From a virus (Duplodnaviria; Heunggongvirae; Uroviricota; Caudoviricetes): a stretch of 4,658 bases of DNA. Positions 1 to 4,658 of the stretch are shown in pieces; the first letter of the stretch is position 1; each line of letters begins with the position of its first letter. The stretch is from the IMG/VR virus record IMGVR_UViG_2576861205_000004; one strand, written 5' to 3'. The position numbers and the translations under genes were made by a program. Under the pieces are notes generated by a model. It did not search any database and was not told the origin of the DNA. It was given only the letters and a program-made list of their open reading frames with translations.

Positions 1-92
1 TCCGGTGTCACGGTGGTGTTCCGGGCAGGTGAGCAGGAGCAGACTCCGCCGGAGGGATTTGAATCCTCCGGCTCCGAGACGGTGCTGGGTAC
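1..92 (+). repeat. Direct repeat copy A: J-derived segment at the 5' end of the L ORF (partner 2267-2358)
   Basis: A hand alignment of nt 1-92 against 2267-2358 gives 89/92 identical positions (mismatches at window positions 2, 6 and 27). Similarity breaks down at ~93-100, where L-type sequence (GTGGTGCTCTGGGAAATCGATCTG) begins. Copy A is in the same reading frame as the L ORF. Confidence 0.8.
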
Positions 93-735
93 GGACGTGG
101 TGCTCTGGGAAATCGATCTGACAGAGGTCGGTGGAGAACGTTATTTTTTCTGTAATGAGCAGAACGAAAAAGGTGAGCCGGTCACCTGGCAGGGGCGACA
201 GTATCAGCCGTATCCCATTCAGGGGAGTAGTTTTGAACTGAATGGCAAAGGCACCAGTACGCGCCCCACGCTGACGGTTTCTAACCTGTACGGTATGGTC
301 ACCGGGATGGTGGAAGATCTGCAGAGTCTGGTCGGCGGAACGGTGGTCAGGCGTAAGGTTTACGCCCGTTTTCTGGATGCGGTGAACTTCGTCAACGGAA
401 ACAGCGACGCCGATCCGGAGCAGGAGGTGATCAGCCGCTGGCGCATCGAGCAGTGCAGCGAACTGAGTGCGGTCAGTGCCTCCTTTGTACTGTCCACACC
501 GACGGAAACGGATGGTGCCGTTTTTCCGGGGCGCATCATGCTGGCTAATACCTGCACCTGGACCTATCGCGGTGATGAGTGCGGTTATCACGGTCCGGCG
601 GTCGCGGATGAATATGATCAGCCGACTTCCGATATCACGAAGGATAAATGCAGCAAATGCCTGAGCGGCTGTAAGTTTCGCAATAACGTCGGCAACTTTG
701 GCGGCTTCCTTTCCATTAACAAACTTTCGCAGTAA
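1..735 (+). CDS. L: Minor tail protein L (tail-tip Fe-S protein), 5'-partial at the window edge; the first ~31 codons are J-derived, so this is an in-frame J'-'L chimera
   Basis: The 13..735 ORF translation from VVLWEIDLTEVGGERYFFCNEQNEKGEPVTWQGRQYQPYPIQG to the C-terminal CSKCLSGCKFRNNVGNFGGFLSINKLSQ matches lambda gpL as I recall it. The frame is open from nt 1 with no in-frame stop, and the GTG at 13 has no Shine-Dalgarno, so the CDS probably continues upstream. Residues encoded by nt 1-93 ([31 protein letters not shown]) are J sequence, not L. Stop TAA at 733-735. Confidence 0.85.
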   Translation, partial: SGVTVVFRAGEQEQTPPEGFESSGSETVLGTDVVLWEIDLTEVGGERYFFCNEQNEKGEPVTWQGRQYQPYPIQGSSFELNGKGTSTRPTLTVSNLYGMVTGMVEDLQSLVGGTVVRRKVYARFLDAVNFVNGNSDADPEQEVISRWRIEQCSELSAVSASFVLSTPTETDGAVFPGRIMLANTCTWTYRGDECGYHGPAVADEYDQPTSDITKDKCSKCLSGCKFRNNVGNFGGFLSINKLSQ

Positions 736-740
736 ATCCC

Positions 741-1484
741 ATGACAGAGACAGAATCAGCGATTCTGGCGCATGCCCGGCGATGTGCGCCAGCGGAGTCG
801 TGCGGCTTCGTGGTGAGAGCGCCGGAGGGGGAAAGATATTTTCCCTGCGTGAATATCTCCGGTGAGCCGGAGGCGTATTTCCGGATGGCTCCGGAGGACT
901 GGCTGCAGGCAGAGATGCAGGGTGAGATTGTGGCGCTGGTCCACAGTCATCCCGGTGGTCTGCCCTGGCTGAGTGAGGCCGACCGGCGGCTGCAGGTGCA
1001 GAGCGATTTGCCGTGGTGGCTGGTCTGCCGGGGGGCGATTCACAAGTTCCGCTGTGTGCCGCATCTCACCGGGCGGCGCTTTGAGTACGGGGTGACAGAC
1101 TGTTACACACTGTTCCGGGATGCTTACCATCTGGCGGGGATTGAGATGCCGGATTTTCATCGCGGGGATGACTGGTGGCGTCACGGTCAGAATCTCTATC
1201 TTGACAATATGGAGGCTACTGGTTTTTACCGTGTCGCACTGACAGAGGCGCAGCCGGGCGATGTGCTGCTGTGCTGTTTTGGTTCATCGGTGCCGAATCA
1301 CGCCGCCATTTACTGCGGCGACGGTGAGCTGCTGCACCATATTCCTGAACAACTGAGTAAACGAGAGAGGTATACCGACAAATGGCAGCGACGCACACAC
1401 TCCCTCTGGCGTCACCGGGAATGGCACGCATCTGCCTTTACGGGGATTTGCAACGATTTGGCCGCCGCATCGACCTTCGTGTGA
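741..1484 (+). CDS. K: Tail tip assembly protein K, with an N-terminal JAB/MPN (JAMM) metallopeptidase-like domain and a C-terminal NlpC/P60 (C40) peptidase-like domain
   Basis: 247-aa ORF. JAMM-type motif HSHPGGLPWLSEAD (HxH-x7-S-x2-D) at aa 68-81 (nt 942-983), with an upstream E-x-CG element (AESCGF, aa 18-23). NlpC/P60-like Cys in GVTDCYTLF (C121) and His in PNHAAIY (H187) plus HH (199-200). ATG at 741 lies 5 nt after the L stop, with no clear SD, suggesting translational coupling. An internal ATG at 885 preceded by GGAGG (869-873) corresponds to the shorter start used in the classical lambda K annotation. Confidence 0.88.
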   Translation: MTETESAILAHARRCAPAESCGFVVRAPEGERYFPCVNISGEPEAYFRMAPEDWLQAEMQGEIVALVHSHPGGLPWLSEADRRLQVQSDLPWWLVCRGAIHKFRCVPHLTGRRFEYGVTDCYTLFRDAYHLAGIEMPDFHRGDDWWRHGQNLYLDNMEATGFYRVALTEAQPGDVLLCCFGSSVPNHAAIYCGDGELLHHIPEQLSKRERYTDKWQRRTHSLWRHREWHASAFTGICNDLAAASTFV

Positions 1485-2023
1485 AAACGGGGGCTGAAGC
1501 CATCCGGGCACTGGCCACACAGCTCCCGGCGTTTCGTCAGAAACTGAGCGATGGCTGGTATCAGGTACGGATTGCCGGGCGGGATGCAGGAGAAACCGAA
1601 TTATCATCCCGTCTTAATGAGCCGCTGGCAAATGGTGCCGTGATCCACATCGTGCCGCGTCTTGCGGGAGCAAAAAGTGGCGGTGTGTTTCAGGCGGTGC
1701 TGGGTGCGGCGTTGATTGCTACGGCAATCTGGATGCCGGGGATCAGTATCGCTTTCAGTGACATTCTCTTTTCAATGGGTGCGGCGATGACGCTTGGTGG
1801 TGTGGCGCAGATGCTGGCACCGAAAGCCAGAACTCCCCGTACACAGACAACGGATAACGGCAAACAGAACACCTATTTCTCCTCACTGGATAACATGGTT
1901 GCCCAGGGCAATGTTCTGCCGGTTCTGTACGGTGAAATGCGCGTGGGGTCACGCGTGGTTTCTCAGGAGATCAGCACGGCAGACGAAGGGGATGGTGGTC
2001 AGGTTGTGGTGATTGGTCGCTGA
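1382..2023 (+). CDS. I: Tail assembly protein I
   Basis: 213-aa ORF. The N-terminus MAATHTLPLASPGMARICLYGDLQRFGRRIDLRVKTGAEAIRALATQLPAFRQKL and C-terminus MLAPKARTPRTQTTDNGKQNTYFSSLDNMVAQGNVLPVLYGEMRVGSRVVSQEISTADEGDGGQVVVIGR match lambda gpI as I recall it. The start lies inside the 3' end of K in a different frame, as in lambda. A purine-rich stretch GAGAGAGG (1363-1370) sits 11 nt upstream of the ATG. Stop TGA at 2021-2023. Confidence 0.88.
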   Translation: MAATHTLPLASPGMARICLYGDLQRFGRRIDLRVKTGAEAIRALATQLPAFRQKLSDGWYQVRIAGRDAGETELSSRLNEPLANGAVIHIVPRLAGAKSGGVFQAVLGAALIATAIWMPGISIAFSDILFSMGAAMTLGGVAQMLAPKARTPRTQTTDNGKQNTYFSSLDNMVAQGNVLPVLYGEMRVGSRVVSQEISTADEGDGGQVVVIGR

Positions 2024-2041
2024 TGCAAAATGTTTTATGTG

Positions 2042-2070
2042 AAACCGCCTCCGGGCGGTTTTATCGTTTA
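2042..2070 (+). terminator. Candidate stem-loop in the I-J intergenic spacer: possible intrinsic terminator/attenuator or mRNA processing or stability element
   Basis: AAACCGCC (2042-2049) and GGCGGTTT (2054-2061) are exact reverse complements around a 4-nt loop TCCG, followed by a T-rich tail TTTTATCGTTTA. The tail is interrupted, and this sits inside a late operon where read-through is expected, so function is uncertain. Confidence 0.3.
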
Positions 2071-2083
2071 TGGAGCATGAGGA

Positions 2084-4658
2084 ATGGGTAAAGGCAGCAG
2101 TAAGGGGCATACCCCGCGCGAAGCGAAGGACAACCTGAAATCATCCCAGATGCTGAGCGTGATAGACGCCATCAGCGAAGGGCCGGTTGAAGGTCCGGTG
2201 GATGGATTAAAAAGCGTGCTGCTGAACAGTACGCCGGTGCTGGACAGTGAGGGGAATACCAATATATTCGGCGTCACGGTGGTGTTCCGGGCCGGTGAGC
2301 AGGAGCAGACTCCGCCGGAGGGATTTGAATCCTCCGGCTCCGAGACGGTGCTGGGTACAGAAGTGAAATATGACACGCCGATCACCCGGACCATCACGTC
2401 GGCAAACATTGACCGTCTGCGTTTTACTTTCGGCGTGCAGGCACTGGTGGAAACCACCTCAAAGGGGGACAGGAATCCATCGGAAGTCCGCCTGCTGGTT
2501 CAGATTCAACGTAACGGTGGCTGGGTGACGGAAAAAGACATCACCATTAAGGGCAAAACCACGTCGCAGTATCTGGCCTCGGTGGTGGTGGATAACCTGC
2601 CGCCGCGCCCGTTTAATATCCGGATGCGCAGGATGACGCCGGACAGCACCACAGACCAGTTGCAGAACAAAACGCTCTGGTCGTCATACACCGAAATCAT
2701 CGATGTGAAACAGTGCTACCCGAACACGGCACTGGTCGGCGTGCAGGTGGACTCGGAACAGTTCGGCAGCCAGCAGGTGAGCCGTAATTATCATCTTCGC
2801 GGGCGCATTCTGCAGGTGCCGTCGAACTATAACCCGCAGACGCGGCAATACAGCGGTATCTGGGACGGAACGTTTAAGCCAGCATACAGCAACAACATGG
2901 CCTGGTGTCTGTGGGATATGCTGACCCATCCGCGCTACGGCATGGGGAAGCGTCTCGGTGCGGCGGATGTGGACAAATGGGCGCTGTATGTCATCGGCCA
3001 GAATTGCGACCAGTCGGTGCCGGATGGCTTTGGTGGCACGGAGCCGCGCATCACCTGTAATGCCTACCTGACCACACAGCGCAAGGCGTGGGATGTTCTC
3101 AGTGATTTCTGCTCGGCGATGCGCTGTATGCCGGTATGGAACGGGCAGACGCTGACGTTCGTGCAGGACCGACCGTCGGATAAGGTGTGGACCTATAACC
3201 GCAGTAATGTGGTGATGCCGGATGATGGTGCGCCGTTCCGCTACAGCTTCAGCGCCCTGAAAGACCGCCATAATGCTGTTGAGGTGAACTGGATTGACCC
3301 GGATAACGGCTGGGAGACGGCGACAGAGCTTGTGGAGGACACGCAGGCCATTGCCCGTTACGGTCGTAACGTCACGAAGATGGATGCCTTTGGCTGTACC
3401 AGCCGGGGGCAGGCACACCGCGCCGGGCTGTGGCTGATTAAAACGGAGCTGCTGGAAACGCAGACCGTGGACTTCAGCGTGGGTGCAGAAGGGCTTCGCC
3501 ATGTACCGGGCGATGTCATTGAAATCTGTGATGATGACTATGCGGGGATCAGCATCGGCGGGCGCGTGCTGGCGGTGAACAACCAGACGCGGACACTGAC
3601 GCTCGACCGTGAAATCACGCTGCCATCCTCCGGCACCACGCTGATAAGCCTGGCTGACGGACAGGGGAATCCGGTCAGCGTGGAGGTCCAGTCCGTCACC
3701 GACGGCGTGAAGGTAAAAGTGAGCCGTGTTCCTGACGGCGTTGCAGAATACAGCGTGTGGGGGCTGAAGTTGCCAACGTTGCGCCAGCGCCTGTTCCGCT
3801 GTGTGAGTATCCGTGAGAACGATGACGGCACGTATGCCATCACTGCCGTGCAGCATGTACCGGAAAAAGAGGCCATCGTGGATAACGGGGCGCACTTTGA
3901 CGGCGACCAGAGCGGCACGGTGAATGGTGTCACGCCGCCAGCGGTGCAGCACCTGACTGCCGAAGTCACCGCAGACAGCGGGGAATATCAGGTGCTGGCG
4001 CGCTGGGACACGCCGAAGGTGGTGAAGGGGGTGAGCTTTATGCTTCGCCTGACCGTGGCAGCGGATGACGGCAGTGAGCGGCTGGTCAGCACGGCCCGGA
4101 CGACGGAAACCACATACCGCTTCAGGCAACTGGCGCTGGGGAACTACAGGCTGACAGTCCGGGCGGTAAATGCGTGGGGGCAGCAGGGCGATCCGGCATC
4201 GGTATCGTTCCGGATTGCCGCACCGGCAGCGCCGTCGCAGATTGAGCTGACACCGGGGTATTTTCAGATAACCGCCACGCCGCATCTTGCGGTTTATGAT
4301 CCGACGGTACAGTTTGAGTTCTGGTTCTCGGAAAAGCGGATTGCGGATATCAGGCAGGTTGAAACCACAGCACGCTATCTTGGCACGGCGCTGTACTGGA
4401 TAGCCGCCAGTATCAATATCAAACCGGGCCATGATTATTATTTTTACATCCGCAGTGTGAACACCGTTGGCAAATCGGCATTTGTGGAGGCTGTTGGCCA
4501 GCCGAGTGATGATGCATCCGGCTATCTGAATTTTTTCAAAGGAGAGATAGGGAAAACCCATCTGGCTCAGGAGTTGTGGACGCAGATTGATAACGGTCAG
4601 CTTGCGCCTGACCTGGCTGAAATCAGGACGTCCATTACGGGTGTCAGCAATGAAATCA
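2084..4658 (+). CDS. J: Host specificity / central tail fibre protein J (tail tip), 3'-partial; runs off the window end
   Basis: ATG at 2084 preceded by GGAG (2072-2075, 8-nt spacing). The translation [34 protein letters not shown]...[58 protein letters not shown]...[27 protein letters not shown]... matches the N-terminal ~3/4 of lambda gpJ. The frame stays open to nt 4658 (~858 codons) with no stop. The ORF track omits it only because it has no in-window stop. Confidence 0.92.
2267..2358 (+). repeat. Direct repeat copy B: native position inside J (codons ~62-92), partner of 1-92
   Basis: Same alignment as above. This copy is embedded in the intact J reading frame (…[43 protein letters not shown]…). 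Confidence 0.8.

What the first reader, a model, noticed from the sequence alone, without database searches (positions are those of the whole stretch)
1..100. In-frame J'-'L chimera: a 92-bp J segment replaces the native 5' end of L
Nt 1-92 are about 97% identical (89/92) to J nt 2267-2358 and are read in the same frame as the L body that follows. The predicted L product therefore carries J residues ~62-92 ([31 protein letters not shown]) where lambda-type L has its own ~19-residue N-terminus, and where the M gene end should lie upstream. The junction falls at about nt 93-99 (GGTAC|GGACGTGGTGCTC); GGTGCT occurs on both sides (81-86 and 98-103), a possible microhomology. The three mismatches, one of them changing Phe-Gly to Ser-Gly, show the copies are not identical. 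That argues against a trivially collapsed repeat and suggests either an older duplication or recombination between two related prophage tail clusters. Possible consequences are a tandem partial duplication (…L-K-I-J'::'L-K-I-J…), a deletion that disrupts M/L and makes the prophage tail-defective, or a fused tail-tip protein.
Basis: partly seen in the sequence, partly recalled or inferred. Interest (0 to 1): 0.62.

Follow-up and report, generated by a model that had tools for sequence, protein, structure and literature searches.

The report
Contig-edge J/L join in draft scaffold
The J-to-L "fusion" is really in the sequence, but it sits in the first 95 bases of a contig that starts right after a gap in a draft E. 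coli assembly full of near-identical prophage tail genes. It is most likely an assembly by-product and cannot be accepted as a fused tail protein without the reads.

Summary
Window nt 1-95 (not 92) are 95/95 identical to a common allele of the lambdoid J gene. They join in frame, at 95|96 and with 0 bp of microhomology, to an otherwise native L gene starting at L nt 60.

The window is one contig of a gapped draft scaffold: E. coli BIDMC 49a, GCA_000522385.1, KI929798.1. Nt 1 directly follows a 100-N gap, and nt 4658 is followed by a 5,802-N gap. The contig upstream carries intact M and L genes. Three mutually divergent partial copies of the L-K-I-J module lie in series on the scaffold, whereas closed relatives have a single copy there.

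The J piece is not a diverged copy of the window's own J. Together with the last 237 nt of the upstream contig, it matches a third haplotype (strain 82.0311 type). Its length of 95 equals K-1 for the K = 96 graph of ALLPATHS-LG.

The junction is absent from 5,426 closed E. coli genomes and from the phage, plasmid, viral, metagenome and GTDB collections. The predicted full-length fusion is absent from 15 billion proteins.

Best reading (about 0.58): an unverified contig-edge join in an unresolved multi-prophage repeat. A real homology-free join or partial duplication remains possible (about 0.33). Interest is low.

The parts
1..95 (+). J-derived segment: J nt 184-278, codons 62-92 plus two bases of codon 93. 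It is of a J allele different from the window's own J.
   Evidence: 95/95 identical to IAI39 J (L002:3001-3095) and to strain 82.0311 J (L020:4060-4154). It has 4 mismatches to window 2267-2361 and 1 to the FDAARGOS_1301 J. It directly follows a 100-N gap in the source scaffold.
95..96 (+). Breakpoint between J nt 278 and L nt 60. It is in frame (GA|C = Asp) and has 0 bp of microhomology.
   Evidence: Base 95 is J-specific (A; L has G) and base 96 is L-specific (C; J has A). The 24- and 30-nt junction words were found in no collection. No closed E. coli genome, phage or plasmid record spans the junction.
96..735 (+). L gene body, L nt 60-699 including the stop codon. It is otherwise native.
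   Evidence: 100% identical to CFT073 L over window nt 96-699, with nt 96-400 also 100% identical in Nissle 1917 and many other genomes. The deposited product carries PF05100.
96..195 (+). 100-nt stretch identical between this contig's L and the complete L of the upstream contig. The first discriminating SNP is at 196.
   Evidence: Linking base 95 to base 196 needs 102 nt, one more than the 101-base reads of the Broad protocol. This stretch is also longer than K = 96.
741..1484 (+). K gene (C40 / JAB peptidase, 247 aa), intact.
   Evidence: In the nine other genomes shown that carry the identical protein, all eight with gene calls at that position have a native 232-aa L upstream and all nine have M (109 aa; 89 aa in L014).
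1448..2023 (+). I gene (tail assembly protein, 191 aa as called; a longer ORF starts at 1382).
2084..4658 (+). J gene, first 2,574 nt (858 codons), cut off by a 5,802-N scaffold gap.
2267..2361 (+). Segment of the window's own J that is paralogous to nt 1-95.
   Evidence: 91/95 identical to nt 1-95.

Best explanation
The J'::'L join is a contig-edge feature of a draft, gapped assembly. It is not an established gene fusion.

The strain carries at least three related lambdoid tail-tip modules (L-K-I-J). The assembler could not resolve them and placed partial, mutually divergent copies one after another in a single scaffold, separated by runs of N. The window is the middle contig.

Its first 95 nt belong to the J gene of another haplotype. 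Their length equals K-1 for a K = 96 de Bruijn/unipath graph. That is exactly the stub a contig keeps from the graph vertex where it starts.

The join has three properties: it runs from downstream J to upstream L on the same strand, the two points are about 2.27 kb apart on a normal prophage map, and it is blunt with no shared bases. This is the signature of a ligated end pair from a circularised jumping-library fragment, or of a patch made from one. It is not the signature of E. coli's usual microhomology-dependent illegitimate recombination.

Shown: the gap context, the allele identities, the breakpoint, the uniqueness of the junction, and the disagreement with closed relatives. Inferred: which assembler and libraries were used for this record, and the step that let the join into the graph.
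For: 1. The window equals KI929798.1 7783-12440. It is bounded by a 100-N gap and a 5,802-N gap.
2. The upstream contig has complete M and L genes and the first 380 nt of K. The downstream contig restarts in J 910 nt before the point where the window ends. The copies are only 95.8% and 93.5% identical to the window.
3. In closed relatives, the upstream and downstream contigs lie in one prophage about 3.0 kb apart, against 10.6 kb in the scaffold.
4. The upstream contig is 100% identical to FDAARGOS_1301 for 7,445 nt, then has 9 mismatches in its last 237 nt. That end has no exact match among 14,285 K copies in closed genomes. The haplotype switch falls inside a 136-nt stretch shared by both haplotypes, which is at least K.
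5. Both flanks of the gap match one third haplotype, the 82.0311 type: K with 1 mismatch in 283 nt, and J' at 95/95.
6. 95 = K-1 for the K = 96 of ALLPATHS-LG. That pipeline also closes graph gaps with jumping reads while ignoring their pairing, and uses roughly 3-kb jumps spread over 2-10 kb. The strain comes from the Broad CRE initiative. The Broad production pipeline for Enterobacteriaceae added Pilon, whose partial gap fills can extend into the wrong repeat copy.
7. Microhomology at the break is 0 bp.
8. The junction is absent from every collection searched, and the chimeric protein is on one contig only. Four versions of the predicted 305-aa fusion are absent from 15 billion proteins.
9. 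Comparable one-off L chimeras occur in other draft assemblies. Two are J'::'L joins at other breakpoints; one of these lies among serially repeated L-K-I-J pieces separated by 1-N gaps.
Against: A strict K = 96 graph edge across the join needs reads that tile it at many offsets, which one chimeric library molecule cannot supply. Pilon also demands at least 5-fold support for each link. The '95 = K-1' argument therefore also fits a junction that is really present in the DNA.

The scaffold order is what a real join would give: the upstream contig ends in 82.0311-type K, and 82.0311-type J' starts the window, 1,176 nt further on in that phage type.

The assembler and libraries used for this particular record could not be checked with the tools available. 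No read data were available.
Confidence: 0.58

Rival explanations
1. The junction is real. An illegitimate, homology-free join fused J nt 278 of one lambdoid tail module (82.0311-type K-I-J) to L nt 60 of a second module (the window's L-K-I-J). This would give a composite prophage with a partly duplicated tail-tip region: ...M-L-K-I-J'::'L-K-I-J.... The open frame would encode J(1-92)-Asp-L(21-232). That product is most likely a non-functional remnant, since an intact L lies upstream.
For: The scaffold order and the haplotype of both gap flanks fit one continuous path from K through J'. A J' length of K-1 implies that the join was an edge in the assembly graph and therefore probably read-supported. 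The join is in frame. Fusions of L to other prophage genes do occur on chromosome-sized contigs.
Against: The gap is written as 100 N where this model needs about 1.15-1.2 kb. The break has 0 bp of microhomology, which is unusual for E. coli illegitimate recombination (established knowledge, not tested here). The K-1 break needs a second, native copy of the same J 96-mer in the genome. The third contig overlaps the window's J allelically at 93.5% and has no place in this model. There is no independent occurrence anywhere.
Confidence: 0.33
2. A recent tandem duplication of the 2,266-bp unit L nt 60 to J nt 278 within a single prophage. The window would be the second copy.
For: The junction has the topology of a tandem duplication.
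Against: A recent duplication predicts J' identical to the window's own J. They differ at 4 of 95 positions, while J' is identical to another allele. The upstream L-K copy is only 95.8% identical to the window. The idea could be rescued only if the contig switches prophage within the 100-nt shared stretch 96-195.
Confidence: 0.05
3. L genes of this phage lineage natively begin with this J-like sequence.
For: None found.
Against: In all 4,360 matching E. coli records but one (WB61), the best match starts at nt 96-97 with a native MQDIRQET... L start; in WB61 a separate J piece downstream of L was merely joined to the L piece, which is not this junction. In the nine other genomes shown that carry the identical K protein, L is preceded by M; all eight with an L call have the native 232-aa form. 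The J-like part is identical at the nucleotide level to real J genes.
Confidence: 0.01

Closest known systems
Lambda-type tail-tip module L-K-I-J (gpL PF05100, gpK JAB/NlpC-P60, gpI PF06805, gpJ)
   Same: Gene order, spacing and sequence of window 96-4658 are those of ordinary E. coli lambdoid prophages. L is 100% identical to CFT073 L, and each kb-scale segment is identical or nearly identical (0-2 mismatches per 100 nt) to a natural prophage.
   Different: The first 59 nt of L are replaced by 95 nt of J. No other genome shows this.
One-off L chimeras in other draft assemblies: P0066 (Shigella sonnei CXDK01000078.1) and P0098 (RWZD01000682.1)
   Same: Both are in-frame J N-terminus::L C-terminus proteins with the same downstream-to-upstream topology. 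Each is seen on a single contig. The S. sonnei case lies among serially repeated L-K-I-J pieces joined by 1-N gaps.
   Different: The breakpoints differ: J about nt 658 to L about nt 292, and J about nt 704 to L about nt 405. By my reading of the sequences they lie at short shared words (about 10 nt and about 5 nt). The join studied here has none.
Circularisation junctions of jumping (mate-pair) libraries
   Same: The fragment end is joined to the fragment start on the same strand, bluntly and without homology. The implied fragment of 2.27 kb lies at the low end of the 2-10 kb spread described for the Broad libraries.
   Different: One such molecule gives one read position only. That should not survive K = 96 graph building or Pilon's 5-fold rule. 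Use of such a library for this genome is inferred, not shown.
Tandem-duplication or illegitimate-recombination junctions in prophages
   Same: The topology is downstream to upstream on the same strand. Real fusions by deletion exist, for example the L::K fusion P0131, which lies within a normal tail cluster.
   Different: There is no microhomology, the copies are 4% divergent, the first copy is not assembled, and no second observation exists.

Membership tests
gpL (Phage_tail_L, PF05100) | Pfam PF05100 domain over the body of the protein | tested here: met
   A precomputed PF05100 hit is recorded on the 244-aa product. The sequence is 100% identical to CFT073 L from L nt 60.
gpL (Phage_tail_L, PF05100) | Native N-terminus (MQDIRQETLNECTRAEQSAS) with the start codon coupled to the end of M | tested here: not met
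   L residues 1-19 are replaced by J residues and Ser20 by Asp. M is not on this contig.
gpL (Phage_tail_L, PF05100) | C-terminal cysteine cluster (the Fe-S ligands of gpL relatives; from my own knowledge of the literature) | tested here: met
   Cysteines lie at positions 185, 194, 217, 220 and 224 of the 244-aa product, as in native L. Metal binding was not tested.
gpJ N-terminal region | A J start codon and a contiguous N-terminal domain | tested here: not met
   Only codons 62-92 are present, and the sequence upstream is a run of N.
Tandem partial duplication | Junction joining a downstream point to an upstream point on the same strand | tested here: met
   J nt 278 is joined to L nt 60. 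The two points are 2,266 bp apart on the window's own map.
Tandem partial duplication | Both copies present in uninterrupted sequence | tested here: not met
   A 100-N gap separates them. The K 3' end, I and J 5' end of the first copy are not assembled.
Tandem partial duplication | The copies, including J' and the downstream J, share one allele | tested here: not met
   The L-K copies are 95.8% identical. J' differs from the window's J at 4 of 95 positions.
Assembly contig-edge artefact | The anomaly lies at a contig end next to a scaffold gap, in a repeat present in several divergent copies | tested here: met
Assembly contig-edge artefact | Length of the foreign stub equals the assembler's K-1 | tested here: inconclusive
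   95 = 96-1, and ALLPATHS-LG uses K = 96. The assembler of GCA_000522385.1 could not be looked up. It is inferred from the strain's Broad origin.
Assembly contig-edge artefact | The junction is not supported by independent reads | not testable with these tools
   No read data were accessible.
Jumping-library circularisation junction | A blunt, homology-free, same-strand end-to-start join at library insert distance | tested here: met
   0 bp of microhomology, and 2.27 kb against a library spread of 2-10 kb. Whether such a library was used for this genome was not tested.

The most novel reading that the evidence does not exclude
The junction is genuine. A clinical E. coli isolate would then carry a composite lambdoid prophage in which a homology-free join fused J codon 93 of one tail module in frame to L codon 20 of another. 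The result would be a partly duplicated L-K-I-J array and a J(1-92)::L(21-232) open reading frame.
Probability: 0.33. Interest if true: 0.3.

Novelty: not a real feature. Interest (0 to 1): 0.1.

Why it matters
If the junction were real, it would be a single example of prophage tail-module rearrangement by illegitimate recombination. An intact L lies upstream, so the product would probably be non-functional. That would be a minor addition to what is known about prophage decay and mosaicism.

Its practical value is as a caution. "In-frame fusions" at the first K-1 bases of a contig next to a gap, in genomes with several near-identical prophages, should be checked against the scaffold context before they are interpreted. 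The protein databases already hold many such one-off L chimeras.

Tried and rejected
1. Junction words of 30 and 24 nt were searched in viral, GTDB-representative and metagenome contigs. None was found.
2. The only closed-genome hit that 'covered' the query (WB61) was two separate pieces, an L remnant and a J, joined by the tool. It is not the junction.
3. Searches for the accession numbers, and for the Cerqueira et al. 2017 and Gnerre et al. 2011 papers, found nothing held. The assembler of this record therefore remains inferred.
4. Exact look-up of four predicted 305-aa full-length fusions found none on record. This is inconclusive, because it depends on the guessed J N-terminus.
5. P0131 seemed at first to be a K::L (downstream-to-upstream) fusion seen in 11 sequences. 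It is an ordinary L::K deletion fusion. P0128 was not on record.
6. I tested whether the window is an assembler-made mosaic of co-resident haplotypes. It is mosaic at the kb scale. However, a similar L-K-I mosaic occurs in a closed genome (L008). Also, the CFT073-type to L006-type switch lies between informative sites only 24 nt apart, so it is natural. This gives no argument either way.
7. The apparent reciprocal swap between the upstream contig and the window was rejected. The end of the upstream contig is a third (82.0311-type) allele.
8. I rejected 'L starts exactly one read length (101 nt) before the first SNP' as evidence of an artefact on its own. It only shows that 101-base reads cannot phase the junction with the window's L allele.
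9. The promoter and terminator scan gave nothing relevant.

Full report
**1. What is in the sequence**

The window encodes a truncated L, then K, I and the first 858 codons of J of a lambdoid prophage.

Comparison with other genomes sharpens the picture.
- All native L genes match the window only from nt 96 onward. From there, the L genes of CFT073, Nissle 1917 and many others are 100% identical.
- Many native J genes match nt 1-99 at 98/99.
- Aligned side by side, nt 1-95 are 95/95 identical to the J of E. coli IAI39. Base 96 is the first L-specific base.

The J piece is therefore J nt 184-278 and the L part starts at L nt 60. The fusion codon is GA|C (Asp), and the two frames coincide. Base 95 is J-only and base 96 is L-only, so the junction has no microhomology. 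None of the 30 best J matches listed reads C at position 96; all are 98/99 over nt 1-99, and no record exceeds 99%.

**2. Where the window comes from**

An exact look-up of the 244-aa product found a single contig among about 15 billion proteins. It is NCBI GCA_000522385.1, scaffold KI929798.1 (1.38 Mb), E. coli BIDMC 49a, protein ETY55067.1 'phage minor tail protein L, partial'.

The window is scaffold positions 7783-12440. Positions 7683-7782 are 100 N, and positions 12441-18242 are 5,802 N. The window is thus a whole contig between two scaffold gaps, and the 'J segment' is simply its first 95 bases.

- The contig upstream (A) runs from the capsid gene through H, M, a complete native L (232 aa, MQDIRQET...) and the first 380 nt of K.
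- The contig downstream (C) starts inside J at nt 1665 and continues into lom and the tail fibre gene.

M and L are therefore not missing from this prophage region.

**3. The scaffold is not a coherent map**

The window's L-K is 95.8% identical to contig A's L-K'. Its J overlaps contig C's J by 910 nt at 93.5% identity. Three allelic partial copies of one module are therefore laid in series.

In closed relatives such as FDAARGOS_1301, contigs A and C belong to one prophage and lie about 3.0 kb apart. In the scaffold they are 10.6 kb apart.

Contig A is identical to that closed prophage over 7,445 nt. It then accumulates 9 mismatches in its last 237 nt. That end has no exact counterpart among 14,285 K copies in 5,426 closed genomes. 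Its best match, with 1 mismatch in 283 nt, is the K of strain 82.0311. The J of that same prophage carries the exact 95-mer, 1,176 nt further on.

The switch of contig A from the FDAARGOS_1301 type to the 82.0311 type falls inside a 136-nt stretch where the two types are identical. Both flanks of the 100-N gap therefore belong to a third haplotype. Both are anomalous relative to the bodies of their contigs.

**4. Is the junction seen anywhere else?**

No.
- The 30- and 24-nt junction words are absent from IMG/VR, from the GTDB representative genomes and from JGI metagenomes.
- No closed E. coli genome, phage record or plasmid spans the junction. The one apparent hit, WB61, is two separate pieces.
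- Nine other genomes shown carry the identical K protein. All eight with gene calls at that position have a native 232-aa L upstream, and all nine have M. Their DNA homology to the window again begins at nt 96.
- Four versions of the predicted full-length fusion (305 aa) are not on record.

A homology search returned many singleton L chimeras from draft assemblies. These include L proteins with internal in-frame duplications and two further J'::'L fusions at other breakpoints. One of these, from a Shigella sonnei draft, sits among serially repeated L-K-I-J pieces joined by 1-N gaps. One-off chimeras of this module are a recurrent by-product of short-read assembly of genomes with several prophages. 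A few L fusions lie on chromosome-sized contigs, and a deletion-type L::K fusion sits within an otherwise normal tail cluster on a 79-kb draft contig, so some such fusions are probably real.

**5. Why 95 nt?**

BIDMC 49a comes from the Broad Institute carbapenem-resistant Enterobacteriaceae initiative. The Broad pipeline of that period is described as follows.
- ALLPATHS-LG builds a unipath graph with K = 96 from 180-bp fragment pairs.
- It fills gaps in the graph with jumping reads 'ignoring their pairing'.
- It uses jumping libraries of about 3 kb, with a 2-10 kb spread, and 101-base reads.
- Pilon follows, and was put into production on Enterobacteriaceae.

I could not verify the method for this particular record, so this remains an inference. 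A contig that leaves a branch vertex of a K = 96 graph starts with the 95-nt vertex sequence. That matches what is observed. It means the length of the J piece is an assembler constant and says nothing about how much J lies upstream. It also means the 95-mer had two continuations in the data, native J and the join.

**6. Artefact or real?**

For an artefact:
- the contig-edge and gap context;
- three divergent copies in series;
- the disagreement with closed relatives;
- the anomalous ends on both sides of the gap;
- a gap written as 100 N where a real join needs about 1.15-1.2 kb;
- the uniqueness of the junction;
- a blunt, homology-free, same-strand, downstream-to-upstream join 2.27 kb apart. 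This is what the ligated ends of a circularised jumping-library fragment look like. It is not typical of microhomology-dependent illegitimate recombination in E. coli, a point from established knowledge that I did not test here.

Against an artefact:
- a true K = 96 edge needs reads tiling the join, and Pilon requires 5-fold support per link, so a single chimeric molecule should not suffice;
- the scaffold order and the shared 82.0311-type haplotype of both gap flanks are what a real ...K-I-J'::'L... path would give.

The stretch 96-195 is identical in contig A's L, and the first difference is at 196. Linking the junction to the window's own L allele needs 102 nt, more than a 101-base read. 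So even if the junction is real, its attachment to this particular L-K-I-J copy is weakly supported.

I put about 0.58 on 'not a feature of the genome', about 0.33 on a real homology-free join between two tail modules, and about 0.05 on a recent simple tandem duplication. The last is contradicted by the 4/95 difference between J' and the window's J. A native L variant is essentially excluded.

**7. Consequences**

Even if the junction is real, the frame would encode J(1-92)-Asp-L(21-232) next to an intact upstream L. That points to a remnant rather than a new tail-tip protein. The 'M/L deletion' scenario is contradicted by the scaffold. The finding is ordinary and of low interest. Mapping the reads across 95|96, or a single PCR, would settle it.

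Noticed in passing
L005:7446-7682 (the contig upstream of the window in scaffold KI929798.1): The upstream contig is 100% identical to the FDAARGOS_1301 prophage for 7,445 nt. It then switches to an 82.0311-type K allele for its last 237 nt. The switch lies inside a 136-nt stretch shared by the two types, and the combination was found in no closed genome.
   Followed up: yes
window 2016-2053: The window has a 60-nt I-J spacer, as in CFT073. Most relatives with the same K protein (L006-L016) carry an extra ~420 nt here (455 nt against 37 nt between the flanking matches), including a 112-aa hypothetical ORF with no Pfam hit.
   Followed up: partly
window 4658, then L005:12441-18242 and L005:18243 onward: J is cut at codon 858 by a 5,802-N gap. 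The next contig restarts 910 nt 'earlier' in J with a 93.5% identical allele. The gap size fits neither a single prophage nor a simple duplication.
   Followed up: partly
window 96-4658: The contig is a kb-scale mosaic. It is CFT073-type at 96-1000, FDAARGOS_1301-type at 1001-1900, CFT073-type at about 1800-2900, FDAARGOS_1301-type at about 2700-3400, and L013-type at 3401-4658. No closed genome exceeds 98.7% identity over the whole length.
   Followed up: partly
Proteins P0031-P0035: Several singleton L proteins in public assemblies carry in-frame internal tandem duplications of 30-75 residues. They probably result from two prophage alleles being concatenated by assemblers.
   Followed up: no
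L017 (Shigella sonnei CXDK01000078.1) and L018 (RWZD01000682.1): Two other draft contigs encode J N-terminus::L C-terminus fusions at different breakpoints. These are window-equivalent 2741 to 328 and 2787 to 441, at short shared words.
   Followed up: partly
L007:6106 onward (GCA_000461455.1, KE702454.1): Another scaffolded draft assembly breaks off at J nt 344. The gap that follows is at least 2.6 kb. This shows that the module is a habitual gap site in such assemblies.
   Followed up: no
window 2041-2061: A GC-rich inverted repeat (AAACCGCC TCCG GGCGGTTT) lies in the I-J spacer. The simple terminator scan did not flag it.
   Followed up: no
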